Source of the DNA: Chiloscyllium plagiosum
Lineage: Eukaryota
Length of the DNA: 50,000 nucleotides
Assembly (NCBI RefSeq): GCF_004010195.1
Contig: NW_025214744.1
Location: 1 to 50,000, forward strand
Reading direction: 5' to 3'
Part shown: in pieces, positions 831 to 47,645 of the stretch
Layout: each line of letters starts with the position of its first letter
Numbering within the stretch: the first letter of the stretch is position 1
The notes under the pieces: generated by a model
The model's input: only the letters and a program-made list of their open reading frames with translations
Databases searched by the model: none
What the model was told of the DNA's origin: nothing
Translations under genes and position numbers: made by a program

Positions 831-921
831 GAATCACCTGATGAAGGGCTTTTTCCTGAAACATTGATTTTCCTGCTCCTCACATGCTGCCTGACCTCCT
901 GTGCTTTTCCAGCACCACTCT
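831..921 (+). mobile_element. Penelope-derived short repeat (terminal region) with degenerate hammerhead motif
   Basis: CTGATGAAGGGC...GAAAC...ATGCTGCCTGACCT...CTTTTCCAGCACCAC; same family as 4177-4350, 15720-16095 and 47298-47533. Confidence 0.7.
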
Positions 922-1148
922 AATCTGTGGAATTCCCTGCCCAGTGAAGCAGTTGAGGCTACCTTGTTAAATGTTTTCAAGTCAAAGATAGATAGATTCT
1001 TGAACAGCAAAGGAAGTAAGGGTTATGGAGAATGGGCAGGTAGGTGGATCTGAGACCACATAAAGATCAGCCATGATCTTGCTTAATGGCAGAAAAGGCT
1101 CAACAGGCCAGATAGTTTACTCCTGCTCCTAGTTCTTATGTTCTTATG
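922..1148 (+). mobile_element. CR1 LINE 3' end fragment
   Basis: CTGTGGAATTCCCTGCCC...GAGGCT 3' ORF2 remnant followed by 3' UTR ending in the tandem tail TTCTTATG-TTCTTATG. Confidence 0.75.
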
Positions 1149-2129
1149 TGATTCCCAAAAGGAAACTCTTACCATCACGTCATTTAAGCCTGGGCCTCCA
1201 GTGATGATTCTTCAGGACAGCAGGCTGTAGTGGGACAGGACTTCAGTATAACTCTGATAAGGCTAATGGGAGGTTCACCTGGCAACCTTTTTCACTGATG
1301 GTGGCGGGGGAGTCCGTCACCCCTAAGACAACCCCTCCTACTCGGCACTCTGAATCCCAGCTTGTGGTACTATCTATGTACAGAGACTGACTGCAGAGTC
1401 TAATTGCTGGCCTCATTGCAAAATTGTATTCAAGTCTCAAAGCAGAGACTAAAGTCCTTGCCTTGAGTCTGATACTGGGATATTAGTCTCATCTCAGATA
1501 AACGGCTGGTCTCAACATTGAAATGAGGAACTAGTCTTCATGCAAAAACTGTGATGTTAATCTCAGTGCATATACTGAGGTGCAAGTGCCACTACAAAAA
1601 TTAAACAGAGTCATTCTTATCAAATGTTAACAAATGACAAGTTTAAAACTTATCTTAATTCCTTGGAAATATGCAACATATAAATAGCACTTTCACCTAC
1701 GTATGCTTTGGTGTCTCAAACTAAATATTTTATGTAAATTTATGCAAAGAAACTTCTATGGAAATTGCATACTTATATTTGTTGGCTGCTCTGCAAAATC
1801 AACCAGCCACTGTTTAGTGTGAAGAGTCTTTTATTTCCTTTGCACAGCAGTGCTATAGCATTTTGCATAAATGTGGTAACAGAGTGTGCATGAGTTCACT
1901 ATTATGTTCTAATAGGTGATCTATAATAACCTCAAAAGTCTCACTATTACAGTCTAATCCCATAAGGTTACTTGCCATAGGTCTTTTGACAAACATTTTG
2001 TATTAATTAAGTGAAAAACTGTAGTTTTTGGTACATTAAAAAACTTGTTATAAAAATAGGAAATTGGAAAGTAATGAATATGGAGCAGAAGATTAGGTTA
2101 ATGTTTCATGTGGGTCATTTTCAAGGAGC

Positions 2130-2440
2130 TTTCTTTTGGAATTGACATTAAACCAAGATCTGTTCTGCTCGTTCAGGTGGATGCAACATATTTGAAGAAG
2201 AGCAAGGGAGTTATCACCAGTGTCCTGACCAATATTTATCCCTCAATCTATATCATGGTAGCAGATCACCTGATCATTACCACGCTACTGTTTGTGGGGA
2301 TTTCCTGCGCACAAATTGATTGTTTCGTTTCCCTACTTTGCCACGGCGAGTACACTTCACCAGTAATTCAACATTGTTATAAATTAATTTGGGAAGCATT
2401 AGTGTCATACAGAAAACTCTACACAATTAAAATACTTTTT
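2130..2440 (+). mobile_element. Deu-domain SINE (SacSINE1/AmnSINE1-like), degenerate
   Basis: GAAGAAGAGCAAGGGAGTTATCACCAGTGTCCTGACCAATATTTATCCCTCAA and CTGTTTGTGGGA...GCACAAATTG resemble the Deu domain and 3' part of DeuSINEs; related copy at 16470-16690. Confidence 0.65.
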
Positions 2441-2629
2441 CCTTTATTTTACATATCTAGCTAAGATGTAGTCTTGAAAGAGCCATTACTCACTGCAATG
2501 CTGAATAGAAAGACCCAAAGTCAAGATTGCTCAGTCATCCAGTATAACTTGTTGTATAGCTTTTATTTCTATTTATATGTTTATATAGACACCTATTCTT
2601 TATATACTTCACTAAAATTTACATAAAGC

Positions 2630-2765
2630 CTCTAATGTAGTAAAATATCCCAAGGTGATTATAAAGCAAAATTTAACACACAAGTTGATATCAGGTCCAA
2701 GAGGTGGATTTTAAGGAGCATCTTAAAGGAAGAATGAATAATTAGAGGGGTGGAGAGGATTTTGA
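2630..2765 (-). mobile_element. L2 LINE 3' end remnant
   Basis: AATGTAGTAAAATATCCCAAGG...TTTTAAGGAGCATCTTAAAGGAAG; reverse complement resembles the L2 3' end at 48304-48510. Confidence 0.5.
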
Positions 2766-3339
2766 AATAGCTATTAATCAAAATGGTGCTGGGTCATGGT
2801 TTCTCTGTGTTCAATTTTGTGAAACCCATAATCAACAGTAAAGATAACAGAGCAACAATCAGTCACCATACACAAGTAATAATGTTCTCTTTATATTTCT
2901 GAATCATCTCAGCTAGTAATTTTGTTTTATTCTCTGGCCCTCCAAACAGAAATCATGATTTGTCCATCTGCACATGGGAAATAGATAAAGTATGTTTGAA
3001 AAGTTAAATTTGTGTGAGTTATAAACAGTACTTCTAGCTTGGGTTTCAAGATCACCAAGACGAGTTCACATGTCCAAGGCAACTGGTACATCTCCATAGG
3101 CAGATTACCCCATTGGAGAAGGCTATTTTGGGTGGTCTTACCAGTTATGGCCCTGAGGGAAATGCCAGCTTGGGATATGAGATCACCCATTTCAAGCTGT
3201 GAACAATTCTCAGATTAGTAGCAAAAAAGAAAGAAAGATCCATTGTCATTTTCTACATTCCTGTTTCATGGTTTACCAATATTTAATTGTTTGCTCACAG
3301 TAGTTCCAAAGGAAAGTAAAACCCATGGAACTTAACTGT

Positions 3340-4176: not shown

Positions 4177-4350
4177 TCTCCTCCCTACCTTTTATCTTAG
4201 CCTGCTTGGCACACTTTCCTCATTCCTGAAGAAGGGCTCATGCCCGAAATGTCGATTCTCCTGCTCCTTGGATGCTGCCTGACCTGCTGCGCTTTTCCAG
4301 CAACACATTTTCAGCTCTGATCTCCAGCATCTGCAGTCCTCACTTTCTCC
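4177..4350 (+). mobile_element. Penelope-derived repeat carrying a hammerhead ribozyme motif
   Basis: CATTCCTGAAGAAGGGCTCATGCCCGAAATGTCGATTCTCCTGCTCC...CTCCAGCATCTGCAGTCCTCACTTTCTCC; homologous to the copy at 15720-16095, which is contiguous with a GIY-YIG C-terminal remnant. Confidence 0.75.
4222..4257 (+). ncRNA. Minimal type-I hammerhead ribozyme motif
   Basis: CTGAAGA core (4226-4232), extra A, helix II GGGC/GCCC with TCAT loop, GAAA (4246-4249), GTC triplet (4251-4253), short helix I ATTC/GATT. Activity untested. Confidence 0.6.
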
Positions 4351-4436
4351 TATATGTCAAAGTATACTAACATAAGGTACCATCAAGATAATAAATCCTA
4401 ATATGGTGATTAGGCGATGGTGAGTAAATTTCTGTT

Positions 4437-4751
4437 TTGATTAGATTCCCTACAGTATGGAAACAGGCCCTTTGGCCCAACTAGTCCACACCAATCCTCC
4501 AAAGAGTAATCCACCCAGACCCATTTCCCTCTGACTAATGCACCTAACACTATGGGCAATTTAGCATCACTAATCCACCTGACCTACACATTTTTGGATT
4601 GTAAGAGGAAACCAGAGCACCCAGAGGAAACCCATGCAGAAACAGGAAGTATGTGCAAACTCCACACAGACAGTCACTTAAGCCTAGAATCAAACCTGGG
4701 TCCCTGGTACTATGAGACTGCAGTGCTAACCACTGAGCCACCGTGCTGCCC
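4437..4751 (-). mobile_element. HE1-type tRNA-derived V-SINE, full length
   Basis: Minus strand: A box TGGCTCAGTGG, B box GGTTTGATTC, V domain (TGTGTGGAGTTTGCAC...GGGTTTCCTCTGGGTGCTCTGGTTTCCTC), CR1-like 3' end with short AATCT tail. Confidence 0.85.
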
Positions 4752-6089
4752 TGTAAAGGCATTAAAGGTCTTATGGTATATAGAGAGAGTAGGCCTTAGT
4801 GACTTAAGGAGCTAGGTTGGAGTATTGGTGATATCTCAAATGCTTAAAACACCATAGACTGTCAAGCAGCCAGTCAGAAACAAAAACTGTCAATCCTGGA
4901 ATTTGTACAGGAATCCATTTTCAGGAAATCAAATACACTGGGCAAGTAATGTGCTTTGGGTCAAAGGTATTATGTACAGGAAGAGACTCATCTCGAGTCA
5001 CTGACCATTAGCCCCCCCTACAGGTACAGTTCAAAACTACAGCTTATATTCCATTAAGTATGGTACAGTAATTACCACAGTCTGTCTAAAAGCATTTGCT
5101 GACAACCTAGCTCTAAATACTAAACTTCTGGGCTCCAATTCCACGGTTAAATCTTGGCAACCTTTTCAAAATACATAAAATGCACTGAACTATAAATGTT
5201 TTATTGCTTTTATAGTTTGCATTTCCTTGCAGAAAAGTTGCTATTAATCAAACAGTAGGTCATGGTGCTGAGTATTATTCCATCAATATCATTCCTAACT
5301 GGCTGTTTATACTTGGGCTGCTTAAAACTGATCATGAATGTTGAAAAATTTTCATTTAAATGTTTAGTGGGAATGAACTGATGCAGTCAGCCAGATTTCT
5401 GTTTTAACCACAATCCAGTCAAAGCCCCTCCATCTAGTTTATTCCTTATTTTGTTCATGCTATCCTGCAGAAGGTGAGGACAATCCAACTTATGGATATC
5501 TCCACATACATGATCACAGCGACATCTTTTTAGACAATTGACACTTTGTAAAATTGGTGCTAAAGATTGGGCCTAAACATGGGGTTGGTAGCCTCCATGG
5601 CTCTGTAAATCCAGCCTTACAAGAGAGCAGTCAAATCAGTCTACCCACAAAAGGTACTTTCCCACAGAGGTCAGGATCCTACTGACATATATAGGATCAT
5701 GACTTCAATTTTGAGTGCAAACTGTTACGATGGAAGCAAAGGAACAAGAGGTGATCCCCATTACTCCATCAGAACATGATTTGGAGGAGCCGGTGTTAGA
5801 AGAGATTGAACTCCATCAAATACTATGGGCTCTTTGTCTTGCTTCAGGGTCGCCTCACACTCCCTCAGATGTATCCAAGGGCTATGACTTCAACAGAAAG
5901 GGATATAGGACATGAAGCAATAGAATGCCTGAGGACAATTTTGCATCCTCAACCAATGCTGAATTTTGTCACAACAATTCTATGTCCAGGCCACTCACCC
6001 CAGTATCATTTCTGTCTTTCTACATTCTACTTGCTGTAATGTGTCAGCTTGGCATTGTTTAATCCCCTCTCCAGGGCCTGGATGCTTAA

Positions 6090-6727: not shown

Positions 6728-7042
6728 TTAGATTAGATTACCTACAGTGTGGAAACAGGCCATTTGGCCCAACAAGTCCAGACCAACCCTCCAAACAGTA
6801 ACCCACCCAGACTCAATTCCCTCTGACTAATACACCTAACACTTTGAGCAATTTAGTGTGGCCAATCCACCCTAACCTACACATCTTTGGATTGTGGGAG
6901 GAAACTGGAGTACCCAGAGGAAACCCATGCAGACATGGGGTGAATATGTAAACTGCACACAAACAGTCACCCGAGGCTGGAATCGAAGCAGAGTCCCTGG
7001 CGGTGTGAGGCTGTAGTGCTAGCCAATGAGCCACCATGCTGC
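6728..7042 (-). mobile_element. HE1-type V-SINE, full length
   Basis: Colinear with 4437-4751; (TTAGA)n tail on + strand; A box TGGCTCATTGG. Confidence 0.85.
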
Positions 7043-7357
7043 ACAATATTGTTAACAAAAGACTTTGAGGACTTTGACTCAATGACAGTGAAGGAACAGC
7101 AAGGTAATGGAATTGTTGACAACTTGTGGAAATGAATCTCTGTCTGTTAAATTATAAGACGCAACAAGGGGAAAAAAACAGAGATTTGTGATTATTAATA
7201 AAGAGATTTGTGAACCATAACTCTCTGACCAAGTTTCCCTAAGATAAGAAGGGACTGGGGAGAGTGAGTTGAGATGTTTAAAATTCTGATTCTTTTTTAA
7301 TAGGTAGGATAGGAAGCAGGTCTTGTCACAGGAAGAAGACTCAATAAACATTGAACA

Positions 7358-8988: not shown

Positions 8989-9045
8989 CCACACACACAC
9001 CTCCCCTCGGCTCCCACACGCACACACACGCACACACATACACAC
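8989..9045. repeat. Interrupted (CA)n microsatellite
   Basis: CACACACACAC...CACGCACACACACGCACACACATACACAC. Confidence 0.8.
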
Positions 9046-10750: not shown

Positions 10751-10756
10751 CTTCCT

Positions 10757-10940
10757 CCCATTCCCTGAGAAAAAGAACAGGAATTAACATCACCAGAGGA
10801 AATTATATCACCACAGGAAATGGCATCACCAACCTAAGGAAACCCAAACATATAAATAGAAAGCAGAAAACACGAGCAGTGCTTTGTCCTGAGGCTCACT
10901 GAAGATGTTACCTGGTATGGTGATGAAATGTCTGAAAAGG
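10757..10940 (+). mobile_element. Penelope-like terminal fragment (second family) ending in a hammerhead motif
   Basis: Three short ATCACCA...GGAAA repeats, then TCACTGAAGATGTTACCTGGTATGGTGATGAAATGTCTGA. Family assignment rests mainly on the hammerhead architecture. Confidence 0.55.
10896..10935 (+). ncRNA. Minimal type-I hammerhead ribozyme motif
   Basis: Helix I TCA/TGA, core CTGAAGA (10899-10905), extra T, helix II GTTACC/GGTGAT with TGGTAT loop, GAAA (10925-10928), GTC (10930-10932). Confidence 0.55.
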
Positions 10941-11194
10941 GAGCAGATATATCAGTACCAGCTGCCTAAGGCCCTAGTAATTATGCCTGACTAAATGTAG
11001 TTGTACTTATTTGCTATCATGCTATAACCTTCTTGTTATCTATAATATTTCCGCTAACGATACTTTATGGTGCAATGTCATCTGGTCAGCCGATAGGAAA
11101 GCAAAGACAAAGGAGAATTGGTGACAGATAACTACCCTAAATAATCCTTACCCAGTACCACATACAGGAAGAGATGACAAATACAAGATGCCAG

Positions 11195-13095
11195 CTGTGG
11201 TCTTCTGGGAAAATACCATGGAAGGATTTAAAGAGAGGTTTAAGAAAAGCAAGGAGAGGACATGAGCAATCTTTAGCAGGTAGAGTAAAGAAGAAGCCTA
11301 ACGTTTTATATAGGTATGTGAGGAATAAAAGGATGACTAGGGTAGGAATAGGGCCAATCCAAAGTCGGAAGTGGGAAGTTGTGTGTAGACCCTGCAGAGA
11401 TCGGAGAGGTGCTAAACGAATATTTCTCATCTGTTTTCACTCAGGAAAAGGAGAATATGTAGAAGAGAAGAATGAGAAATGGGATATTAGACTAGAAAGG
11501 ATCGAGGTTAGTAAGGAGGAGGTGTTATCAATTCTAGGAGGAGGTGTTGTCAATTCTAGCAGGAGTGAAAGTAGACAAGTCCCATAGGCCAGATGGGATT
11601 TAAGCAAGAATTCTCTGGAAAGCTAGGGAGGAGGTGTTGGAGCCTTTGGCTTTGATCTTTGAATCATCATTGTCTACAGGTTTAGTACCAAAGGACTGGA
11701 GGATTGCAAATGTTGTGCCCTTGTTCAAGAAGGGTAGTAGAGATGACCAGGTAATTATAGACCAGCGAGCCTTACATTTGTTGTAAGAAAGGTTTTGGAA
11801 AGGATTATAAGAGATAGGATTTATAATCATCTCGCAAGCAACAATATCATTGCAGATAGTCAACATGGTTTCATCAAGGCAGGTCATGTCTACAAACCTC
11901 ATTGAGTTTTTTGAGAAGGTGACAAAGCAGGTGGATGAGGGTAGGGCAGTTGATGTGGTATACACAAACTTCAGTAAAGCCTTTGATAAGATTCCACATG
12001 GTACGCTGTTGGAGAAAATGCAGATGCATGGGATTGAGGGTGATTTAGCAGTTTGGATTAGAAACTGGCTTTCTGAAAGATGGCAGTGAGTGGTGGTTGA
12101 TGGAAAATATTCAGCTTGGAGTCCGGTTACTAGTGGTGTGCCGCAAGGATCTGTTTTGGGACCACTGCCTTTTGTCATTTTTATAAATGACTTGGACACA
12201 GGCATAGTTGGATGGGTTAGTAAGTTTGCAGATGACACTAAAGTCAGTGGAGTAGTGGATAGTGTAGAAGAATGTTACAGCTTGCGGGTGACTTGGATAA
12301 ACTGCAGAATTGGGCTGAGAGGTGACAAATTGAGTTCAATGCAGATAAATGTGAGGTGATTCACTTTGGGAAGAATAACTGAAGACAGAATACTGGGTCA
12401 ATGGAAAGATTCTTGGTAGTGTGGACATGCAGAGGGATCTTGGAGTCCATGTACATAGATCCCTGAAAGTTACCACCCATGTTGATAGTGCTGTAAAGAA
12501 GGCATACAGTGTGTTAGGTTTTATTGAGAGAGGGATTGAGTCCTGGAGCCGTAATGTCATGCTGCAACTATACAAAACGCTAGTGTGGCCTCACTTGGAA
12601 TATTGTGTACAGTTCTGGTCACCCCATTACAGGAAGGATGTGGAAGCATTGGAAAAGGTGCAGAGGAGATTTACCAGGATGTTGCCTGGTCTGGAGGGAA
12701 GGTGTAATGAGCAAAGGCTGAGAGACTAAGGCTAAGAGGGGATTTGATAGAGACATACAAGATGATTAGAGGAGAAGATAGGTTAGACAGTGAAAGTATT
12801 TTTCCTACGAGAATGATGTCAGCTTGTATGAGGGGGCATAGCTACAAATTGAGGGGTGATAAATTTAAGACAGATGTCAGAAGCAGGTTTTTACTCAGAG
12901 AGTGGTAAGGGCGTGGAATGCCCTACCTGCCAATGTAGTTAACTCAGCCACATTAGGGAAATTTAATCAACCCTTGGATAAGCACATGGATGATGATGGG
13001 ATAGTGTAGGGGGATGAGCTGAGAATAGTTCACAGGTCGGCGCAACATTGAGGGCTGAAGGACCTGTTCTGCGCTGTATTGTTCTATGTTCTATG
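11195..13095 (+). mobile_element. CR1 LINE, 5'-truncated, pseudogenised ORF2 (RT)
   Basis: ORF fragments with WRIANVVPLFKKG, VDVVYTNFSKAFDKIPH, GVPQGSVLGP, KFADDTK, PHLEYCVQFWSPHY; frameshifts and stops; ends in (TTCTATG)n tail. Confidence 0.95.
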
Positions 13096-13308
13096 AAAGG
13101 GGCATTCAGTTTATGAATCATTTGCATAACGTCACTAAGAATGCATTCCCCACTGGTATAGCAATTTTGGTAATTACGAAACACATGGTCTGTTAGTCTG
13201 GTGTAGTGAATATAATAAAGTATAAGAGAAAGAAAGACCCAAACGAGGATTACAACTTGAACCAAAGATCAATTGAAAATAACACTTGGACAATTCTTCC
13301 ATTTACTA

Positions 13309-13612
13309 ACAGTGCCAGAGACCCGGGTTCAATTCCCGCCTCAGTCAACTGTCTATGTGGAGTTTGCACATTCTCCCTGAGTCTGCGTGGGTTTCCTCTG
13401 GATGCTCTGGTTTCCTCCCAAAGTCCAAAAATGTGCAGGTTAGGTGAATTGGCCAGACTAAATTGCCCATAGTGTTAGGTGACGGGGTAAATGTAGGGGA
13501 ATGGGTTTGGGTGGGTTGCGCTTTGGCGGGTCAGTGTGGACCTGTTGGGTCGAAGGGCCTGTTTCCACACTGTAAGTAATCTAATGTAATGTAAGTAAGT
13601 AATCTAATCTAA
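13309..13612 (+). mobile_element. HE1-type V-SINE lacking A box
   Basis: B box GGTTCAATTCC at ~13326, V domain, CR1-like end with GTAA/TAATC repeat tail. Confidence 0.85.
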
Positions 13613-15719: not shown

Positions 15720-16095
15720 CGATTTTAGTTGAGAGTGGAGTGCTGGAAAAGCGCAGCAGGTCAGGCAGCATCTGAGGAACAGGAGAATCGATGTTTCGGG
15801 CAAGAGCCCTTCATCAGGAATGAGGCTTGTGAGCCAAGGGGGTGGAGAGATAAAAGAGAAGGGGTGAGGCTGGGGGAAATTAGCTGTGAGTATGATAGGT
15901 AGATAGAGGAGGGGGTAATGGTGATAGGTTGGAGAGGAGGGTGCAGCGGATAGGTGGGAAGGAAGATGGACAGGTCATGAGAGTGGTGCCGAGTTGTAAG
16001 ATTAGAACCGGGAATAGGTGAGGGGAAGGGAAATTAGGAAACTGGTGAAATCCACATTGATGCCATGTGGTTGGAAGGTCTCAAGGTGGAAGACT
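15720..16095 (-). mobile_element. Penelope-like element 3' fragment (GIY-YIG C-terminus, pyrimidine-rich tract, hammerhead)
   Basis: Minus strand FHLETFQPHGINVDF (~16045-16092), then CT-rich tract, then CTGATGAAGGGCTCTTGCCCGAAACATCG (15789-15817). Confidence 0.8.
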
Positions 16096-16469
16096 TTCTA
16101 GACTTTAGTCTGCTGAATTTCCTTCTCATAAACAAATCTTTAGCACTGTGCAGTGCAGAATTAGCTGAATAGATATTGTTTATGTTTTCAATTGTAGTAG
16201 TATGGGAGACCTCTTCAGCACATCAGAACTTTAACCCATCACCAAAATGTGATGTTTACTCTAGCTGATTATCCAGCCTTTAGATCACTTGTAGATTTCT
16301 AGCTTCCATTCAAGTATGAGTCTGGGATGGGTACTGAGAAATTGTCTCTGGTAGACCTAAGAGTTCAGAAATAAACAGACAGCCATTGCATTCAGAGCTT
16401 TTAGGGTGAAATCCATTTCTCTTATTAGCATAATATTACAGTAAACAAACAAAGCAAAAATTCATATTT

Positions 16470-17059: not shown

Positions 17060-17571
17060 TCATAGGACCCCTACAGTGTGGAAACAGGCCCTTTGGCCCA
17101 ACAAGCTCCCACCGACCCTCTGAAGAGTAACGCATCCTGACCCATTCCCCTACCCTATAATTACCCCTGACTAAGGCACCTAACCTCCACATTCCTAAAA
17201 ACAGTGGGTAATTTAGCATGGCCAACTCACCTAATCTGCACACCTTTGATTTGGAGATGCCGGTGTTGGACGGGGGTGTACAAAGTTAAAAATCACACAA
17301 CACCAGCTTTATTAGGAAGCACTAGCTTTCGGAGCACTGCTCCAAAAGCTACTGCATCCAAATAAACCTATTGGACTATAACCTAGTGTTATGTGATTTT
17401 TAATTTTGCACATCTTTGGATTGTGGGAGGAAACCGAAGCCCCCAGAGAAAAACTCATGCAGACACAGGGAGAATGTGCAAACTCCACACAGACAGTCGC
17501 CGGAGGCTGGAATCAAACCTGGCTCCCTGGCACTGTGAGGCAGCAGTGCTAACCACTGAGCCACCATGCCG
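17060..17571 (-). mobile_element. HE1-type V-SINE interrupted by an insertion
   Basis: Colinear with the other copies over 17060-17248 and 17409-17571; intact A box TGGCTCAGTGG and B box GGTTTGATTCC. Confidence 0.85.
17249..17408. mobile_element. Fold-back (inverted-repeat) insertion, probably Penelope-derived
   Basis: Arms CAAAGTTAAAAATCACACAACACCAG / CTAGTGTTATGTGATTTTTAATTTTG around a central GGAGC-ACT-GCTCC; flanked by CACACCTTTG/CACATCTTTG (probable TSD). Confidence 0.7.
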
Positions 17572-18009
17572 AGCCACCTGCCTCAAATCAGTCAGGGAAA
17601 ATAACCAAAGATGTTCACTCACCACCAGTCATAGCAGCTCTGTGGATCGCCTTGGAAAGTTCCTCAGTGCCAATCTTGGCAGAACTTCCAGCTTCAAAAT
17701 CAATACAGAACCTACTTGACTTATTAAACCCATCATGTGAAAATTGTTTATATTTTTAAAATGATTTTATTCCATTTTCCTTGCTTTTCCATAATTTCAA
17801 ATAAAGTAAGCAGGTTCTAGCATACAGGAGAGAATGTTCTTATTCTAACTGAGAAGATGACATTTCAGAAAAGGCCATTCGATCCATCGAATGAATCTAT
17901 AATTCGGGTCTATGTCTGCCATTTTCAGTTGCTTCCCACAGTTAGTAAGTTGCGTAAGAAAGCTTCCAGAATGTGCAAGAAGAAATAGAGGCTTGATTTA
18001 TGCAGTACT

Positions 18010-20314: not shown

Positions 20315-20462
20315 AAAGCAAAGTACTGTAGATGCTCTAAATCTGGAACAAACAAAAAGAGTTGGAGAAACTCATTAGGTGTGGCAGCATCCCACAATGG
20401 TCTCTCTTCCTTTCCTGAACTTGCAGGATTTTTCCGCTTGTGTGCTTTTCCAGCAGTGTTCA
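20315..20462. mobile_element. Decayed Penelope-derived repeat with partial inverted structure
   Basis: AAAGCAAAGTACTGTAGATGCT...GGAGAAACTCATTAGGTGTGGCAGCATC followed by TGCTTTTCCAGCA in the opposite orientation. Confidence 0.45.
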
Positions 20463-21672
20463 CTGGATAACAATCATGAGTAGAAAGCCTGACTAACATT
20501 GATACTCCTAACTCCTCTGTTCAAGGATGTGGTCTATTGGTAGGAGTCAAATGATCTTTGCACTTCATTTTTAATAAAATCACTGAATCTAGATGTATAG
20601 ATACCTACATGTAACATCAATGTCTCATATACTTATCTATTAGGCAGCAAGGAGTCTCTAGGATTCAGAAAAAACTACAGTGCAACTCCTTCAGGCAAAT
20701 TGAGCATCCCTTGCAATGTTCAGTTCACCTGACTTGTATCAGCAGCCATAAAATTCTAAAGTTCAAAAAACGCTTAAGCAATATATACTATAGAAATTGG
20801 AGACTGATTATGATGATTCATAAAGGACAACTAAAACTAAATCAAAACCAATTGAATACAGCGGTATACCCATTAACATGTAACCTGACCCCTCTGTAAA
20901 TATTACTCTTTGCCATGCTCTGCCATCTTCACTATACCACTTGCAATATATACAGTACTAAACCACAATAATCAATAACTGCAAGTAAAACGTAGGCTGA
21001 TATAGTGTTCATTCATTAAAATTGTTTGCCCCTATAATGCCCTCCAAAAAATAACTGTTGTCTTGTTATAATATAACCAATGCACTATCCTTTAATAGAT
21101 TCTGATTCTTATGTGAATGATGTTCTAACTTATAATAATAAAACTGGTCAACAGTATTTATTAATATTTAAACATTAGAAGCATTGACAAAAGCACTGGA
21201 TATACTACATATTCATAGAAAACAGAAGAATAGGATTTTGCCAGAAATGGTCTGTTTACTTCTAGAACACTACCTAAAGTAAGTGGGCGAGCTTAAGTCT
21301 CTTTTCTTAATCTCGTTTCTAATCTTTTATTTTTGCATCTAAATTGTACTCTAAATAGAAGACTCAAATAGTTAGCACATTCAGTACTTGAAGCAAACCA
21401 AAGGCAAAAGATGAAGTTCATAAACACGGAAGGGCTTTGTTGTATTTACAAACCAGCTTATGTCCCTCACCCTCATATTGAAACTTCACTGAACATGCTA
21501 CCAGGATTTGCTGCTTCAGAGCTGGTGAGCATGGAAATGCTGATGAGTTTACCCTTGAGATTGTCAAATCAATAAGAAAAGCAGCTGCAGGAAAGCAGCA
21601 ACGATCTGAAGAGGCAAAGGCAAAGACACATGAGGCCTGAAATAGGACTTCATACCAGAATTTCACATAGCT

Positions 21673-21866
21673 GTGGTGTTTAAGGTAGTAGTGGTTAAAG
21701 CTGCTGTGTTTCAAGTGGCAGTGTTTAAAGTGACAAGGCTTAAAGTGGCAATGTTTAAAGTGGCAGTATTTAAAGCAGCAAAGTTTAAGGCAATAGTGTT
21801 TAAAGTGACAGTATTTAAAGTTGCAGTGTTTAAGGTGGCAGTGTTTCAGGTTTCAGTGCTTAAGCA
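21673..21866. repeat. 15-bp minisatellite, consensus TTTAAAGTGGCAGTG, ~13 copies
   Basis: Directly visible periodicity; explains the (VAVFK)n ORF 21673-21903. Confidence 0.9.
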
Positions 21867-24800
21867 GGGAAACTGCTATTTACTTTTCTATGTAGCCTAC
21901 TAGAATAAGGACTAAATCAAAAAATGAAGATGTGCACTACACTACCCACAAAAGTGAAAGGTACCAGGTCTCTAAGCTTTTATGCCTTCACTTCTTTGAA
22001 AACTGCTTCTGTTGACATCAAAAATATCAGTCAGCTTTTTATGCAGTCAGTTCTCTGGCTGATCATTGTTGCACTATTTACCAAGTCACAAATGTTCATT
22101 AGCTTCCTTGTGGAGGCTGACAAGCAGGAGATAAAAGTATTGGGTTGTTCCCACATTGTTGTAATCCCACAGTCCCAGAGCATCATGGACTACTTCTCTT
22201 CCCTCCCAAACTGGTCTTGCTCTTCTGGGTCTGCAATGGAAAAGGACAGAAGAGATACCATTTAATAGCATGTAAAAACAGGTGGATGAGTGGGTATTTG
22301 TCATCTTGGCGTGTGGAGTTGAGCTTAAGAGAGAGAGGAATGGAGAAAAGGTTGATTTAAAAGCCCTGTGGAGCATGTCCTTCAATTTCATCAGATTTCA
22401 CACTTCTGATAAGATCCCTGCTTATGACATTCAGCACTTGTTTGTCAAGTAAAAACAGCACATGGTTGAGCGATGTTCCATCTACTGCTTCCTTTGTGGT
22501 GGCTTCCTACTTGTTTTACATACAAACTTATCTGCAATAAAGAATGGATTGTATTAGTGATAGAAGAATGAGAAGATTTGACACTGATCGAATCAGACTA
22601 AAAAGGTGCTGCTGGTATGTGAAAGAAAATAGGGGTGCACAGAAGGGAAGAATATAACTTTAAGGAGCGTAGCAGGTGTCAAGTGCTGCAGTAGGATCAA
22701 AGTAGGTGGAATAAAGTATGGTGATTGGAGCACACTGCAGATAATCAGAGAAGGGAAATATTGTAAATATTGGAGCAACAGGTTGTGCAAATATACAAAT
22801 TGACCAATTGGAAAAATGAGTCAGAAGACTTACCTTAGGTAGCTTTTTTTTTCTTTTGAAAAACAATCATATTTTGCATTGAAGCCTCTGGCTACTCATC
22901 CAATCTGCTTAGTCACATTTGTTTCAGTAGCTTTCCCCCATCTAATGAAAAGGAGATTGACTTCCACCTGTAAATCTCCATTGCTGATACCTTCAGTGAT
23001 GTATCAGACAATGTTGTACCCCTACAAGTCCAAATAAAATCAATAGTGTTGGTAGATCTTCAAATCATTCAGGCAGGCCAACTTCAGATGTATCCAGAAA
23101 CTTCAGAAAGGATTTTTTTTCTCTCTGCTTTCTTCCTTTACTTTCTTTTGTTTTGTCTTATTGCAATAATGGAATGCAGAATTCTGTTTGTTACTCCAAA
23201 GGAGATGAGCAATCTCAACACAGACCAGCAACTGATATCAATATTACTTAGCATTAATTGTACTATTATCAGTCTGTGGAGTCTCATATAGTTGGAATAG
23301 TCACAAAACAATATTAATAATTCCACCAGTTATTTATTAAACTATGAGAGTCATGTTCTGATTGTGAAATCAGGTCATCATGCTTCATCTCTTATAGAAA
23401 TAGAATATTTGGAGCATGGGCAATAAAAGCCTTTCTGATCGCTTCTTTCTCCAGTCTGACTGTTTTTGCTTCTGTCAATTTCATACTCTGTTTCTGCTTT
23501 GAACTTTTTTTTCTCTTTTGTTCTTCCTAAATTACAAACATGCTGCTCTTGATGCTCTTTCTGAATCCTGTCTGCTCTTTGTTGAAATTAAACTGTTTCC
23601 CTGCATTTCAAGAGCAATTACTCCTGAGAGGTACATCAATGGTTGTAAACCACCCTGCTGTTCTGAGAGGCACTAGATAAATGCAAGTTCTCCTTTCTTT
23701 CAAGACTCATGGCATTGTTAATTTCCTCAACAGTATTATTGGAGAGACACTACCCCTTTCAAATTGTCAGTAATTGGTTACTTTTACTGGCAAATTCTAA
23801 TATCATTTACTCTTTTTAGTTAATTTACTAATGGCAGCAATAGAAGTGATTGAATGCTTACTATTTGAAAAAAAATCCTCTATTTTTATTTTAACAGAGA
23901 TTTTATTGCATTTATTCTCAGTAGGCTAACACCAGGGGCACCAGCTTTGGTCCCCCAATTCCACTAGCAGTAATTCCTCTGGAATGTTATACTGCATTCC
24001 AAAGATGTCTTTCTCTGGTGTACCCATTTCAACACGATGCAGTCAAGTGTATTTTTGAAAGTTTGTTTTTAGTAAGAAGATTTGATGTTCAACTTGCAAC
24101 TCAACTTTAGCTAACTTGATGGGAAATGTGAGCATCATTCTCATGCTTAAATGAAATTACCAGGTTTTAGATGCCTCAGGCAAAAATGAATCAAACTCTC
24201 TGGTGAATTTGGTAAGTGAAAAACATTATTAAGCCTGACTGCATGCCATTTCCCAATTTGCCAGTTTAATCACCTCTTGGGGAGGAAAGAGTCCAAGTAA
24301 AAGCCAGCACCTTACTCCAGCAGTGGTCTTTCAGAGTTGGTGTTTCACTTTCATAGACCATCTCTGCTCTTGCTGTTCTCCGCCATGAATGAGGGGAATT
24401 TTTGTTTGCCCTCTGACTTATCCTGGGCAATGTACCTGATCCGAAAAAGCCAAGCTTCCACCAGTATAATCGGTAGAGTAAAATCTATTAATTTTCTCAT
24501 TACCTTCTTAAGAAATTGTTACATTTCTAACTATGCAAATTCATATTAAATTGTTTAGTCCAATATAAACAGATAAGGACTTGGTGGCAATATATGGACT
24601 ATGTAATGAGCAATTTAGGAATTATGTTTAGGAATTATTTAGGAATATTCTCCTGACTGAACATATTCACAAGTTTTCATAATTAGTATATTAGTTTTCA
24701 TAATTAGTATATGGCTTTATTTGTTGGGCGAGGCACATGGCTAACTTTCACCAAATCTGCTTCAAAAACATTTTCAGTGTGTTTTAGATGTTTTTATACA

Positions 24801-24934: not shown

Positions 24935-25346
24935 ATTACGTTTGGGAGATGGATTATTCTTTAAACAAAAACATTATCCGAGCCCAGCCAAAATGTTATG
25001 GCGTATCAAAACCTATATTTCAACCATAACCTTCCGGTGGCCGAGTTACAGAGTGAATTCTCTTGAAATGTCTTTGCAATGAGTCTGTTCAGTGGAAGAA
25101 ACGGTTAGAGAGCAAAACTTGTGGCTTTTAACTGTGGCATTACGTTTGGGAGATGGATTATTCTTTAAACAAAAACATTTTCCGAGCCCAGCCAAAATGT
25201 TATGGCGTATCAAAACCTATATTTCAACCATAACCTTCCGGTGGCTGAGTTACACTCAGAGTGAATTCTCTTGAAATGTCTTTGCAATGAGTCTGTTCAG
25301 TGGAAGAAACGGTTAGAGAGCAAAACTTGTGGCTTTTAACTGTGGC
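24935..25346. repeat. Direct tandem duplication (204 bp + 208 bp)
   Basis: Copy 1 24935-25138, copy 2 25139-25346; by eye they differ by two substitutions and a 4-bp indel. Confidence 0.95.
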
Positions 25347-28300: not shown

Positions 28301-29140
28301 GAGAAAGTGTCACAGGCAGAAGTGCCAGCTTTTTGTAGATATTGTGAAATGTTTAATGATCCCCAGACTGAAACGAGCCCTCATTAACAAGAACCGGGGC
28401 CCTCGTCAAATACATAAATTTAAAGACAATGTTAGCTTCACCCCAGGCAAAACAAATGTTCTGATCTTTAATTTCTACTTTTTGCCAGCCTGCTCGGTCG
28501 AATCAATGGTGGCTTGTTGAAATAGTTTCAAAAGGTGTGTTTGGTCCGTTTGAATATTTTATCTTTAAACGGTGTTCGTCCGCGCGAGTGTGCAGTTATT
28601 GCAAACAAGCACATTCAATTTTTCACCCATCAGTGATATCAATAAAACTGTAATATTGATAAGGAGACACGATATTTCAATTTATTGGTTTCTCACATTT
28701 CTTAAACTGGGCTCACAGTTCCTCCTTCCAAAGTCACCTGTCCAATTACGAAAATATCTCAAATCTAATAACGCAAACATTCCGCTGATTAAAAAAAACG
28801 CTAATTAGCGTGCAGCTGTCATAAGACATAGTTTTGAATTTCTGGTTCACGTTTATTATCAAAGTCGCGTGAATCACTTGGACATTGTCAATAAACCGTT
28901 AAATCTTGAGGAATACTTTGGGCGAGGCAGCGGTTTGAGATGTTGACAGCCTCTTGCTATCGGAGACAGAGTTTCAAGGTGCCAAACTCCTTACTGAACA
29001 TAGTCCTCGCTGTTAAATGTATCCCTCGTTATTTCTGATAACACTGTTTAGGTTTCTCTTTGCTAATCCTACTCCTATCACTGAACTATATTTTCTGAGA
29101 CTGTCTCAGCTAACTCAATTTCTGGCTTCGCACAAGGCTC

Positions 29141-29423
29141 CTACTGTATATTAACATTGACTCTAACTCTAACCTGGTTGCGACTGTGTGCTAGCATTCA
29201 GTCAAACTCTAACCAAGCTGCTACTGTATATTAACATTGACTCAAACTCTAACAACCAAGCTGCTACTGTATATTAACATTGACTCAAACTCTAACCTGG
29301 CTGCTACTGTGTGCTAGTATTCAGTCAAACTCTAACCAAGCTGCTACTGTATATTAACATTGACTCAAACTCTAACCAGACTACTACTGTGTGTTAACAT
29401 TGATTCTAACCTTAACAAGGCTG
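29141..29423. repeat. 40-bp minisatellite, 7 units, two variants
   Basis: Units CTACTGTATATTAACATTGACTCAAACTCTAACC(A/T)(A/G)GCTG (A) and CTACTGTGTGCTAG(C/T)ATTCAGTCAAACTCTAACCAAGCTG (B). Confidence 0.92.
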
Positions 29424-30675
29424 CTGTTTCTGACAATTCCTGAGTTTGATTGTTTCTGTTCCAGACAGTGAAGTTACAATAATCAAGTGTTGTTTCCACT
29501 AATCCTGAATATGACTGAATCTGTTTTTGTCTTGTCTTATCCCGGAGGGCAAGATAGATACACTGTGGAGTGCCCAGGGTCCTCTTCATTTTAATAGCGG
29601 GCTGGAAACGCGTTTGAGAATCTGCAGTTCTTTACTTGCAAATTCAGGATTGATATTTAACATATCTGGGTGACTCAAACCCTCTGGGATCTTGGGTATT
29701 CGAACAAGTCATTTAATTTGGAAGTCCATTTTCAATTATGAATCAAGTATAATTAAGAACCCGATGTTAGTATCAGTTGTATGTGATATTATTGAACGAC
29801 ATTTTCGAATCGATTAAAGATTGATGAAAAGTTAGCATATTTTTGCCACTACATACAGCACACAGAAATGTATCGCAGTTTAGCTTTTCAAGACATTGTA
29901 AACTAAAAGTATGTGATGAACAATTAAACTGTAAATATCATTTATTACCGAGACTTTTTAAATGAAAATAGCTTTTAAAATCCTTACATAGAATAGTTTT
30001 AGATTATGCCTAATAATAAAGCAACGGGTTTGGGGGAATAAGAGAAGATGGGCAGTCACAATTTAAAATCATTCAATTTAATAAAGCTGGATTTGGTATT
30101 TCAAAAAATCTATTACAATTTTGTCAGTAGACATTTATCCTGCAGCCCTGTGCATTTCGCCAAATAATAATTCAATCTTATGAACATAATTTAATTCATG
30201 TGAATCTCCGAAGTTAAATAAAATCAATAATTCTAACTGTCTTGTTATTTTTGGACGTACTGTTATGTAGCCCTCAAAGAGTTATATTCTGTTAAATCGA
30301 CTGGAATTTTTTTCTTAAAAAAGGCTGTCGCTGCATTTTTCATAATACTGATATCTTTACTGAGACTCTTCCTGTTTAGCTATAGAAACTAAAATGTACT
30401 GCCAAGACATGCAGACATCGCGCAGGGGGTGGCGAGCTCATGATATGTATGACACAAGGATTAAAATAAATATTCGCAGTTAGTTATAGTCTGTCAGGAG
30501 ATGAAGTCGCCCATGACGTGGAGGGGGTTAATGCACATCTTTTTTTTTGTTGTTTCTCTTTTCGAAAATGTAATGCTTGTCCTATTTTTTTAATAAAGTA
30601 ATTCAACAGTCAAACTCAGAACTCCAGTAATAGCAGAGCAGTCAGGCCTCACTACAACTCCACTTGAAGGTCCAT

Positions 30676-32210: not shown

Positions 32211-33731
<1,521 letters not shown>

Positions 33732-33968
33732 TAGCTTTTTTTTCTCTGTGTGTGTACATTTATAAATCCTGTTTTGTGGCTGATTAAGGATCAGAAACAA
33801 TTCAACAGTGCATTGCATCCCTTCCCACTGTCATTCCTACACTGGCTGACTTTAAGGACAGGCTGTTATATATTTATGTTCAGGCTAGCAGACTGAACTC
33901 TGTCAGCCTGGAGAGGCAGTAGTTTGTTTTTATAGAAATGATATACACCCCTCAATGTCCGGGTTTAG

Positions 33969-34604
<636 letters not shown>

Positions 34605-34754
34605 TGATAACTGCATACAGAAATATCCTGACTGGTTGATTGCCTATGCAAGAGAGTAGGGGTAACTCCCTACTCGGGAAGCTAGTGATGGTTACTGATG
34701 TCTCATTTGTTTGGGTGAGCAGGAGGGACGGTTAGATCAACAAGCCAGTGCTGC

Positions 34755-34940
34755 TCCCTCACCACCCAGACGCCTGGAGGAAGAACGCCTCATCTTCCGC
34801 CTCGGAACACTTCAACCCCAGGGCATCAATGTGGACTTCAACAGTTCCCTCATTTCCCCTTCCCCCACCTCACCCCAGGTGCTCTTCCAGCACCACTGAT
34901 CCAGAATCTGGTTTCCAGCATCTGCAGTCATTGTTTTTAC
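34755..34940 (+). mobile_element. Penelope-like GIY-YIG endonuclease C-terminal fragment plus terminus
   Basis: RRLEEERLIFRLGTLQPQGINVDF in ORF 34711-34899, followed by TTCCAGCACCAC...TCCAGCATCTGCAGTC as in the other copies. Confidence 0.75.
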
Positions 34941-35254
34941 GCCACTGTTAAACAGTGGCGCTTTATTTAGTCTTCTATATGTATAACCGTCATAGCAGAT
35001 CCGCTCGCTTTCTCACTCCAATCCAACCATGTCCACATTGGCAGCAATCAAACCGTGACCCTCCCGCCCCTGGCTGGCCACTGTCTGCCAACTGTATCCA
35101 CGGGACAGTTCACGCTATTGGTGTGAAATCAAACCCCAGAGTTAACCATGACACATTGCATTCTCTTGCAAGGTGAACTCAAAAGTTGACCAGACATCCC
35201 GCCCAGTATTTTACTCCAGCATTTAAACGGCGCTTAAAATAAAACATGATGAGC

Positions 35255-35388
35255 AGGTATCGGTGTTGGACTGGGGTAGACAAAGTCAGAAGTCACACGA
35301 TATCTGGTTATAGTCCAACAGGTTTATTTAAAACCATAAGCTTTGAAATCACAAACTACAACCTGGTGTCCTGTGTGACTTCTGACTA
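35255..35388. mobile_element. Fold-back repeat of the same family as 17249-17408
   Basis: CGGTGTTGGACTGGGG..ACAAAGTCAGAAGTCACAC... with inverted arm GTGTGACTTCTGACT. Confidence 0.65.
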
Positions 35389-35740
35389 AAATTACATACG
35401 CCTCACATTGAAAATCAGAAAAATACAAACGCTCTTCTGTAATATTCAAGTCACCTTTGAAATATGCTTCAGTATAGCATTGAGTATAAATTCAGGGCCA
35501 ATCTTGTTATTGCACAGTTTGTTAAAATTCAACCTAATATCACAGGAAATTGTTTGGCCTAATAGGAAAAGTTGTAATATTCAGTAAATAAGAAACAGTA
35601 ATGACCCACGGCAACAGTTAGTGTTGGCCAGAAATCTTTCAGATATGAGAGGTCGGTGTTTAACAATAAGTGGTGACCGCCTGAAGGAAATTGGGTCCAG
35701 TTTAATGGGAGCTTTTCAGGCTCGCGTGTTAAGATTGTAA

Positions 35741-36010
<270 letters not shown>

Positions 36011-43945: not shown

Positions 43946-44829
43946 ATTATGAAAGCAAAAAGCATAAACAAACAGATGACATGTAATGTTTGGTTCTCAC
44001 AAACTTTAATAAAAACTTGTTTGGTTCTCACAAGGTTAATGTTGAGATTTATACAGCAAGACAGCTTCATTTGGATCAAGTTGCAAAGCCAAATGGAGAC
44101 AATCCAAGCAATAGGATACCAAATTGATGAGCATCATTATCCTGTAGTAATTTATATTTTCTATTCTATCTTGTAAAAGATCACTGGTACAAAGATGGCA
44201 AACATTTTTTTTCTCAAAAATACTCTCTTTATTTTGGCCATATCCACTCAAATGCCTTGAACTGTGATTATGTGCGCAGCTTATGTTACATAGTGCATTT
44301 GTATTTAAATTGATTGTTGTGTTCCAAAGACCTGTTAAATAAGCAGCATTCTATATATGTCCGGGACAGTGAACTACATTATCCCTACTTTGGAGTTGTC
44401 TGAACATCTGCTTCTCGTCTGTTCTGCCACAGGTTTGAGATTAGACAGTATTGAGGTACACTGCCAACTTTGCACTGCTTCCATTCAGAGGAAAGCAGAG
44501 CTGTTTGCCTGCATTTATCAACAGTGGAGAACACTGGGAACAGGATAAGAGCACTATAAAAAATGTTAATATTGGAGAAGTACTGGCAAGACAGTTTCTT
44601 TTGCTCTCGCATTGGCAATGTAATGGTGACCTTTTAATTGTTTTAAAAATTTGTTCTTTCCTTGAAAAGTTGGCTTTGCTTAATTTTCAGCCATACTAAC
44701 ACTGATGCAAAGCCTATGTTGTGCGAGATGGCTTCCTCAGTGCGATCACAGAACTGAAGTTATTAATGAACTGGTAAACTTTTGATTAATGCTGCTCACT
44801 GGCACAAAGTCAACATAATTTCACAATAA

Positions 44830-45101
44830 TGCAGAATGTTCAGCAAGATTCTGCTATCCATATCCTCACTTACACTATAACTATCCCCATCATCCCTGCG
44901 CTCACTGAACCATGTGGGTCTTTTTCTAGTAACACATTCATTTCAAATTTTCATCTTTGTTTTCAAATCAAATGGTCATACTCATCAAAATCTTTGGCAT
45001 CTTCTCCAGTCCATTGTATCTCTTTTTCTCCAATTCTGGCCTCTTGCACATTCCCAGTTTTAGACATTCCACCAATGGTGGCTGTGCCTTCTGCTGCCAG
45101 T
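44830..45101 (+). mobile_element. L2 LINE 3' region, left part
   Basis: CCCCATCATCCCTGCGCTCACTGA...TCTGGCCTCTTGCACATTCC...GGTGGCTGTGCCTTC, typical of L2 ORF2 C-terminus; continues at 48304. Confidence 0.65.
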
Positions 45102-45132
45102 TGAGGCAATGCTGCTCCTTTAACAAGGTTAT

Positions 45133-47645
45133 GAGAAGTAAGAAAGGGATCTGAGAAATAAGAAAGGGATGATCATCTTATTTGGATTGTATTAAAGACT
45201 GCCCCCTATAGTCAGCAAGAAATTGAGAAGCAAATTTGTAAGGAGACTTCAGTTATCTGTAAGAATAACAGGGTGGTTATGGTAGGGGATTTTAACTTGC
45301 CAAACATAGACTGGCACTGCCATAGTGTGAAGGGTTTAGATGGAGAGGAATTTGTTAAGAGTGTACAAGAAAATTTTCTGAGTCAGTATGTGGATGTACC
45401 TACTAGAGAAGATGCAAAACTTGACCTACTCTTGGGAAATAAGGTAGGGCAGGTGCCAGTGGGGGAGCACTTAGGGGCCAGCGACCATAATTCTATTAGT
45501 TTTAAAATAGTGATGGAAAAGGATAGACAAGATCTAACAGCTGTATTTCTAAATTGGAGAAAGGCCAATTTTGACGGCAAGAACTTTCAAAAGCTGATTG
45601 AGGGCAGATGTTCGCAGGTAAAGGGATAGCTGGAAAATGGGAAGTCTTCAGAAATTCGATAACGAGAATCCAGAGAAAGTATATTCCTGTCAGGGTGATA
45701 TGGAAGGCTGGTAGGTATAGGGAATGCTGGATGACTAAAGAAATTGAGGGTTTGGTTAAGAAAAAGAAGGAAGCATATGTAAGGTATAGACAGCATAGAT
45801 CGAGTGAATCTTCAGAAGAGTATAATGGCAATAGGAGTCTACTTAAGAGGAAAATCAGGAGGGCAAAAAGGGGACATGAGATAGCTTTGGCAAAAAGGAT
45901 TAAGGAAAATCCAAAGGGTTTTTACAAATACATTAAGGACAAAATGGCAACTAGGGAGCGAATTGGGTCCCTCAAAGATCAGCAAGGTGGCCTTTGTGTG
46001 GAACCACAGGAGCTGGGGGAGATACTAAACAAGTATTTTGTTTAAGGAAGTGCTGGATGTCTTGAAATGCATAAAGGTGGATAAATCCCCAGGACCTGAT
46101 CAGGTGTACCCTAGAACTCTGTGGGAAGCTAGGGAAATGATTGCTAGGCCCTTTGTCGCGATATTTGTATCATCGATAGTTACAGGTGAGGTGCTGGAAG
46201 GATGGAGGTTGGCTAACGTGGTACCACTGTTTAAGAAAGGTGGTAAGAACAAGCCAGAACTATAGATCGGTGAGTGTGATGTCGGTGGTGGGCAAATTGT
46301 TGGAGAGAATCCTGAGGGACAGGATTTACACATGTTTGGAAAGGCAAGGACAGATTAGGGATAGTCAACATGGCTATGTACGTGGGAAATCATGTCTCAC
46401 AAAAACTTGATTGAGTTTTTTGAAGAAGTAGCAAAGAGGATCGATGAGGGGAGAGTAGTGGACATGATATATATATGGACTTCAGTAAGGCATTCGACAA
46501 GGTTCCCCATGGGAGATTGGTTAGCAAGATTACATCTCATGAAATATAAAGAGAACTAGTCATTTGGATATAGAACTGTTTCTAACATATAAGACAAAGG
46601 GTGGTGGCGGTGGAGGGTTGTTTTTAAACTGGAGGCCTGTGACCAGTGGTGTGCCATAAGGATCAGTGCTGGGTCCACCACTTATTGTCATTTATATTAA
46701 TGATTTGGATATGAACATAGGTATAGTTAGTAAGTTTGCAGATGACACCAAAATTGGAGGTTAGTAGACTGCGAAGAAGGTTACCTCAGATTACAAAGGG
46801 ATCTTGATCAGATGGGCCAATGGGCTGAGGAGTGGCAGATGGAGTTTAATTTAGATAAATACAAGGTGCTGCCTTTTGGGAAAGCAAATCTTAGCATTTA
46901 ATGGTAAGGTCCTAGGGAGTGCTGCTAAACAAATAGACCTTGGAATGCAGGTTCATAGCTCCTTGAAAGTAGAGTCGCAGGATTTGAGCTATAGGGTAAG
47001 GCTAAATAGGCTGAGGCTGTTTTCCCTGGAATGTCAAAGGCTGAGGGATGACCTCATAGAGGTGTATAAAATCATGAGGGGTATAGATAGGATAAATAGA
47101 CAAAGTCTTTTCACTGGGGTGGAGGAGTTGAAAACTAGAGGGCAATTTAGGGTGAGAGGGGAAAGATACAAAAGGGAGGGTGGTGCGTGCATGGAATGAG
47201 CTGCCAGAGGAAGTGGTGGAAGCTGGTTCAATTGCAACATTTATAAGGCATCTGGATGAGTAAATGAATAGGAAGGTATAGAGGGGCCTGGGCCAAGAAT
47301 CGAGAGTGTGGTGCTGGAAAAGCAGAGCAGGTCAGGCAGCATCCGAGGAGCTGCAAAATCGATGTTTTGGGCAAAAGCCCTTCATCAGGGAAAGGCCAAT
47401 TCCTGATGAAGGGCTTTTGCTCAAAATGTCAATTTTCTGGCCCCTCAGATGCTGCCTGACCTGCTCTGCTTTTCCAGCACCACACTTTCGACTCTAATCT
47501 CCAGAATCTTCAGTCCTCACTTCCACCTAGATATGGGCCAAGTGCTGGCAAATGGGACCAATTTACTTTAGAACATCTGGTCGACATGGACTAGTTGAAC
47601 CGAAGGGTCTGTTTCTGTGCTGTATGTCTCTATGACTCTATGATT
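45133..47645 (+). mobile_element. CR1 LINE, 5'-truncated, pseudogenised ORF2 (endonuclease C-terminus + RT) with internal deletions
   Basis: VMVGDFN, LDLLLG, SDHN (APE endonuclease); KSPGPD, WRLANVVPLFKKG, DFSKAFDKVPH, KFADDTK; ends in (TCTATGA)n tail. Confidence 0.95.
47298..47533. mobile_element. Inverted pair of Penelope-derived termini inserted in the CR1 3' UTR
   Basis: ~90-bp inverted arms (~47300-47389 and ~47402-47491); flanked by TGGGCCAAG at 47289-47297 and 47534-47542 (TSD). Confidence 0.8.

What the first reader, a model, noticed from the sequence alone, without database searches (positions are those of the whole stretch)
838..47435. Multiple minimal hammerhead ribozyme motifs dispersed through the RUNX1 locus by Penelope-derived repeats
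Seen: the pattern CTGANGA + 1 extra nt + hairpin + GAAA + (C/T) + NTH recurs at 838-865(+), 4226-4253(+), 10899-10932(+), 15789-15817(-), 34083-34112(-), 47360-47388(-) and 47403-47430(+). There are three unrelated helix II sequences (GGGC/GCCC, GTTACC/GGTGAT, GGGTC/GATCC), so structure is conserved without sequence conservation. The 15.8 kb copy is contiguous with a GIY-YIG C-terminal remnant. Known: Penelope-like elements carry minimal type-I hammerheads whose loopless palindromic helix III is thought to pair in dimers. Inference: sharks host several high-copy hammerhead-bearing Penelope derivatives (seven motifs in 50 kb) that standard annotation would miss; most copies here are damaged at CpG positions.
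Basis: partly seen in the sequence, partly recalled or inferred. Interest (0 to 1): 0.72.

Follow-up and report, generated by a model that had tools for sequence, protein, structure and literature searches.

The report
Decayed Penelope hammerheads near shark RUNX1
The seven motifs are damaged copies of the already described minimal hammerhead self-cutting RNA carried at the ends of Penelope-like jumping genes; they are ordinary repeat debris with no link to RUNX1, though the genome holds about 150,000 copies with the core letters intact, whose ends likely mark where the element's RNA starts rather than where it cuts.

Summary
The motifs are real and far above chance, but only 4 of 7 fit the stated pattern and none is intact. 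They are six insertions (the 47.3-kb pair is one fold-back with a 9-bp target duplication) of 3' end pieces (pLTRs) of Penelope-like retrotransposons: families A and C (Neptune-type) and B (Poseidon-type). The motif is the minimal hammerhead of Cervera and de la Pena 2014. The genome has 153,592 intact core patterns (control 36), with compensatory changes in helices I and II across seven subfamilies. Density at RUNX1 is no higher than elsewhere. Side result: 5' ends of A/C copies pile up 28-36 nt before the cleavage site (101 events, 4.6 expected), about 30 nt after a TATA-like box, often after an extra G; they show no excess at the cleavage site (4 seen, 5.9 expected). These copies were likely run-off cDNAs of uncut, capped RNA that starts at the ribozyme. 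This scan reported that reading before on other DNA, including this genome. Cleavage itself is untested. New member of a known kind; modest interest.

The parts
837..926 (+). Family A (Neptune-type) pLTR stub; hammerhead remnant 838-865 with helix I 5' strand missing, one helix II pair broken, helix III and H17 changed
4178..4352 (+). Family A2 pLTR fragment with tail; hammerhead 4226-4253, best preserved (one CpG change, C15.2 to U)
10763..10938 (+). Family B2 (Poseidon-type) pLTR fragment; hammerhead 10899-10932, 3-bp helix I, 6-bp helix II, C15.2 to U
15741..16139 (-). Family A 3' fragment: GIY-YIG C-terminal remnant (about 16139-16029), 3' UTR, hammerhead 15817-15790 with G16.2 to A
34024..34112 (-). 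Family C (Neptune-type) pLTR stub, antisense in the intron between the first two Runt exons; hammerhead 34112-34083 with U4 to C and helix I 5' strand lost
34750..34940 (+).
   Evidence: (97% over 36 aa)
47298..47533 (.). One head-to-head fold-back insertion of family A: arms carry hammerheads 47388-47361 (-) and 47403-47430 (+), both G12 to A; only the + arm has the tail
47289..47297 (+). 9-bp target-site duplication, left copy (right copy 47534-47542)
33297..35929 (+). Host gene context: three Runt-domain exons (33297-33557, 34284-34440, about 35825-35929), best match RUNX1

Best explanation
The seven motifs are damaged hammerhead remnants inside 3' end fragments of three Penelope-like retrotransposon families, and are likely inert passengers at this locus. 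In the parent elements (shown: RT plus C-terminal GIY-YIG upstream of the motif) the motif is the known minimal type-I hammerhead whose ACGU palindrome is predicted to form helix III only in a dimer. Reverse transcription likely starts at two sites about 60-66 and 97-99 nt past the cleavage site (shown: two 3' end classes). For the Neptune-type families, transcription likely starts at the first base of helix I (inferred from a TATA-like box about 30 nt upstream and an initiator-like motif); priming near this 5' end and running off the uncut, capped RNA would give the very many short copies, and priming from both cut DNA strands would give the fold-backs. After insertion the cores decay, mostly at CpG (shown).
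For: Family copies join to RT (PF00078, E 1e-9) and GIY-YIG (PF01541, E 8e-5) pieces; L147 has two direct motifs 3,135 nt apart around an RT; endonuclease remnants lie upstream of C (L240, E 9e-20) and B copies. 153,592 core patterns vs 36 control; 44 strict cores with helix II in 1.10 Mb of blind sample. Named structure: 83% of cells paired vs 66% shuffled, 0 of 500 shuffles as high, slid controls 21-48%. 5' ends at -36..-28: 101 events in 286 copies, 4.6 expected; at the cleavage site +/-1: 4 seen, 5.9 expected; seen separately in both subsets (50 of 164, 51 of 122). G precedes the start A in 61 of the first 100 listed non-templated cases (by eye). G12 is changed in 29 of 140 copies. Frangieh 2024 found uncut RNA is the insertion template in vitro.
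Against: No cleavage or start site was measured: RNA reads show no place where many molecules begin or end. The extra G was not enriched in my own small sample (12 of 47 at -1, vs 11 and 15 at -2 and -3), and about 21 of the 61 G cases can come from the adjoining inverted arm. The family A box at -31 to -33 (TTTATCT-like) is a poor TATA. Family B shows no such pile-up by eye. Clades rest on a linker motif, not on a tree. No gap-free full-length element was seen: long copies hold runs of N.
Confidence: 0.85

Rival explanations
1. The short copies are separate non-autonomous elements (retrozyme- or SINE-like) that replicate through self-cleaved or circular RNA.
For: Very many copies are short and begin at one point; animal retrozymes derive from pLTRs, and one chondrichthyan has them; 3 RNA reads join the tail back to the motif start.
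Against: Short copies are colinear with the ends of ORF-bearing elements; they are dispersed or inverted, not tandem; ends are not at the cleavage site (4 seen, 5.9 expected); the 3 reads have 2 starts and may be a genomic tandem.
Confidence: 0.07
2. The 5' pile-up comes from reverse transcriptase stalling at the folded motif, or from endonuclease cutting or microhomology at the ATT just upstream, not from a transcription start.
For: The peak coincides with helix I and with an ATT, the preferred cut motif of the anole element; 128 of 286 copies are in inverted pairs where junctions are ambiguous.
Against: The peak remains in non-inverted copies (46 events, hazard 0.058 vs 0.002-0.004); family C has AGTT rather than ATT, with TATAAA 27-29 nt upstream; the extra G; a stall would be expected at the 3' side of a stem.
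Confidence: 0.2
3. One or more copies were co-opted to regulate RUNX1 pre-mRNA by self-cleavage.
For: Several copies lie on the RUNX1 strand (838, 4226, 10899, 47403).
Against: 0 of 7 intact; the one sense copy downstream of the Runt exons has G12 to A; the intronic C copy is antisense; density is not above average (3 anchors in the window vs 164 in 1.10 Mb); monomers did not cleave in Cervera 2014.
Confidence: 0.02

Closest known systems
Minimal hammerheads (min-HHR) in pLTRs of metazoan PLEs (Cervera and de la Pena 2014, PMC4209133; parts 1-2 of 4 read)
   Same: Type I, no loop 3, palindromic 15.2-16.2, extra nucleotide between 9 and 10.1, G10.1-C11.1, short helix I, mostly single copies in truncated PLEs, pairs on opposite strands.
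   Different: About 150,000 cores here against about 4,000 (coelacanth) and 9,000 (Xenopus) there, with different descriptors; no shark named in the parts read; the main family has a U-U mismatch in helix I.
Poseidon element PAc of Anolis (Frangieh 2024, PMC11167929; parts 1-2 of 4 read)
   Same: Two 3' end classes giving a tail; uncut RNA as template; both strands extended; family B has an ATG at the start of stem II (by eye).
   Different: Families A and C carry the Cys linker of Neptune/Nematis and start their long frame about 140 nt past the cleavage site; no activity was tested here.
Canonical EN+ PLE insertion structure (Craig 2021, PMC8557442; passages read)
   Same: 5' truncation, partial tandems, inverted copies, 30-40 bp tail, CX2-5CxxC linker.
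   Different: The passages read do not describe a 5' end pile-up at the ribozyme or an extra G.
Animal non-LTR retrozymes (Li 2026, 10.64898/2026.07.22.740005; parts 1-2 of 5 and passages read)
   Same: Type-I hammerhead, pLTR origin, present in a chondrichthyan.
   Different: Retrozymes are tandem arrays; the window copies are dispersed or inverted fragments.

Membership tests
Minimal type-I hammerhead of PLEs | Core boxes CUGANGA and GAAA..UH | tested here: met
   Family level. Window copies: boxes as stated in 4 of 7.
Minimal type-I hammerhead of PLEs | Helices I and II with compensatory changes | tested here: met
   helix I reads C-G/U-A/A-U at the first pair across families; A1 and A2 have only 3 of 4 pairs. 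Sequences are related, so the shuffle count is not a probability.
Minimal type-I hammerhead of PLEs | Extra nucleotide before helix II, G10.1, palindromic loopless helix III | tested here: met
   G at 10.1 in 210 of 211 (G-C 169, G-U 41); the extra nucleotide and ACGU were required by the scan; ACGU intact in 1 of 7 window copies.
Minimal type-I hammerhead of PLEs | Self-cleavage as dimer or with protein help | not testable with these tools
   No assay; RNA reads show no end pile-up.
Intact ribozyme (the seven window copies) | Complete core and helices | tested here: not met
   0 of 7.
EN+ Penelope-like element | RT followed by C-terminal GIY-YIG, motif in the flanking repeat | tested here: met
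   seen in pieces separated by runs of N.
EN+ Penelope-like element | Direct or inverted pLTRs and 30-40 bp tail | tested here: met
   L147 direct, L115/L116/L262 inverted; 3' ends at about 43-49 and 80-82 nt past the anchor.
Neptune clade (A, C) and Poseidon clade (B) | CX2-5CxxC linker present or absent | tested here: met
   Present in L130, absent in L262/L263. For C inferred from endonuclease similarity to A.
Neptune clade (A, C) and Poseidon clade (B) | Placement in an RT phylogeny | not tested
   No reference sequences were held; Nematis is not excluded for A and C.
Non-LTR retrozyme | Tandem units each with a complete hammerhead | tested here: not met
   Window copies are dispersed or head-to-head.

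The most novel reading that the evidence does not exclude
In shark-type Neptune elements the hammerhead is the capped first 32-34 bases of the mRNA; hundreds of thousands of genomic stubs are run-off copies of that uncut RNA, so the genome records that the ribozyme does not cut the transposition template and instead could act as a self-decapping switch or 3' end trimmer.
Probability: 0.55. Interest if true: 0.6.

Novelty: new member of a known kind. Interest (0 to 1): 0.3.

Why it matters
The motif class and its link to Penelope-like elements are published, and the window copies are decayed, so the finding as given is ordinary. Two things add value. The copy number is over ten times the published vertebrate counts. 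The copy ends bear on an open question, what the PLE hammerhead is for: they point to an uncut, capped template starting at the ribozyme, which agrees with the in vitro anole data and is directly testable.

Tried and rejected
Rfam scan of the window: no hammerhead family among 5 matches. Fossil of cleavage at copy 5' ends: 3 at the exact site of 244 at risk, 2.0 expected; rejected, though a class of 1-2% is not excluded. A U4C family as source of the 34083 copy: 2,055 vs 153,592 (1.3%), spread over all subfamilies; rejected. Two tandem candidates misled: L262 is inverted, and L261 shows no PLE frame between its motifs. The first breakpoint run used a reference that was itself a palindrome; it was dropped and the run redone; one further reference (L107) was also left out. 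18 of 164 copies were censored by N or sequence ends. Sequencing runs: no RNA holder listed; run X20 laid 0 reads. X19 reads lie on both strands and 89-95% run on into unlike sequence, which fits read-through of dispersed copies and says nothing on cleavage. A CTGATGA at about 640 had no family match. No dimer energy, RT tree or covariance model was made. Lunse 2017 (PMC5785218) was not held and is known only from its citation in PMC6765202. Literature searches for shark PLE hammerheads or a start site at the ribozyme found none; the library lacks most subscription papers and Repbase, and supplement file 1 of PMC4209133 could not be searched, so it may list sharks.
Full report
Observation. The copy at 34083 has C in place of U4, and both 47-kb copies have A in place of G12. 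A relaxed descriptor gives 4 window hits against a mean of 0.02 in 100 dinucleotide shuffles; a strict one gives 0. Compared with intact family members, none of the seven is whole: six carry CpG-type changes and three lack the 5' strand of helix I. The two 47-kb motifs are the arms of one fold-back insertion with a 9-bp target duplication. The host exons best match RUNX1 (Runt E 2e-13; PDB 4l0y E 9e-41; RUNX1 97 bits vs RUNX2 94 on the second exon; RUNX3 was not among the hits). Rfam finds no hammerhead here.

What the repeats are. Exact patterns give 16,951 copies for one form of family A, 4,270 for B and 232 for C, each with 0 control matches. A generic core pattern, which does not test pairing, gives 153,592 against 36. 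A blind 1.10-Mb sample has 44 strict cores with helix II, which extrapolates to a similar number, and 164 A/C anchors, about half a million copies. The window has 3 such anchors, so RUNX1 is not enriched. Upstream of family A motifs lie RT and GIY-YIG coding pieces with a Cys linker typical of Neptune/Nematis (Craig 2021, passages). L147 has two direct motifs 3,135 nt apart around an RT, and several loci continue from the motif into the frame's N-terminus. Family C has a related endonuclease remnant (L240). Family B has an RT-endonuclease frame without the linker, so it is Poseidon-type. Long copies contain runs of N, so no gap-free element was seen.

Structure. Across seven subfamily representatives helix I reads ATTC/GATT (A1, A2), ATTC/GAAT (A3), AGTT/AACT (C), CCA/TGG, TCA/TGA and GCA/TGC (B1-B3), and helix II runs from 4 to 7 bp. 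On 14 aligned rows, window copies included, 83% of cells pair against 66% in shuffles and 21-48% in slid controls; the rows are related and were picked for having the motif, so this is support, not a probability. Against strong activity: the commonest families have a U-U mismatch in helix I, and the predicted monomer fold of A1 pairs the core boxes with each other. After insertion the core decays: CpG positions differ in 14-26% of about 140 copies, G12 in 29 of 140. U4C is sporadic, 1.3%.

Mechanism. The 3' ends fall in two groups about 35 nt apart, matching the two internal RT start sites and tail of the anole element (Frangieh 2024). I mapped 5' ends for 164 blind copies and 122 non-focal copies from targeted loci. 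101 ends fall 28-36 nt before the cleavage site, with the mode at -32, against 4.6 expected from the upstream rate; only 4 fall within 1 nt of the cleavage site, against 5.9 expected. The peak is the first base of helix I. It sits in an initiator-like motif (consensus recalled), 27-29 nt after TATAAA in family C and 31-33 nt after a TTTATCT-like box in family A. An earlier scan note suggested an extra G there. My own sample was inconclusive (12 of 47). In the first 100 of 6,242 genome matches lacking the templated C, the letter was G in 61, A in 22 and T in 17; about 38 of 60 after setting aside cases explained by an inverted arm or a point change (counted by eye). I infer run-off copies of uncut, capped RNA, with fold-backs (128 of 286 copies) from priming on both strands. 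Family B shows no such pile-up by eye, in a set where 47 of 64 hits came from targeted loci. RNA reads from run X19, chosen by species label, show a depth step at the same position but run on into flanks, so they repeat the genomic pattern; they show no start or end site.

Comparison. Cervera and de la Pena 2014 describe this motif, its dispersal in truncated PLEs, no monomer cleavage and low dimer cleavage. Frangieh 2024 shows protein-assisted cleavage that insertion does not need. Li 2026 reports retrozymes in one chondrichthyan. Schostak 2008 (passages) places the Drosophila start in the pLTR with a TATA-less promoter and an intron, unlike the layout inferred here. Weinberg 2019 and de la Pena 2017 were read as passages. 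My searches found no paper on shark PLE hammerheads or on a start at the ribozyme, within the limits of the library. The scan itself holds 1,247 notes with these words, and several reach the same reading; I had the pile-up before reading them, and they are not independent evidence.

Verdict. Known motif in known element classes, in a host group apparently not yet written up, at very high copy number; window copies decayed and unrelated to RUNX1 function. Interest 0.3; the start-site reading would deserve about 0.6 if confirmed.

Noticed in passing
window 21648-21878: 15-bp tandem array of about 15 units with open frames on both strands; not identified.
   Followed up: no
window 4436-4772, 6728-7065, 13306-13594, 17069-17595: Several copies of one SINE-like repeat, resembling the elasmobranch HE1 SINE (name recalled, not tested).
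   Followed up: no
window 11140-12730 and 45160-47200: Decayed CR1-type LINE RT fragments (label recalled); the 47.3-kb fold-back is inserted at the 3' end of the second.
   Followed up: partly
window 24935-25346 and 29132-29456: Near-perfect local duplications (204-208 bp and 123/40 bp periods); may be assembly artefacts.
   Followed up: no
window about 640-670 (+): CTGATGA followed by a degenerate hairpin and AAAC; no match to the sampled families.
   Followed up: partly
window 20320-20391 (-): Family C tail remnant without the motif.
   Followed up: no
L110:1780-2000, L168:660-900: In family A1 the reading frame is open through the hammerhead; the core's AUG opens a 16-codon upstream frame, and the likely main AUG lies about 140 nt past the cleavage site.
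   Followed up: partly
L112 (about 5000-5200): A fold-back stub inserted into the 5' coding part of another copy of its own family.
   Followed up: no
window 4227-4352 (run X19): Three RNA reads (two starts) join the tail end back to the motif start: a genomic tandem or a circle.
   Followed up: no
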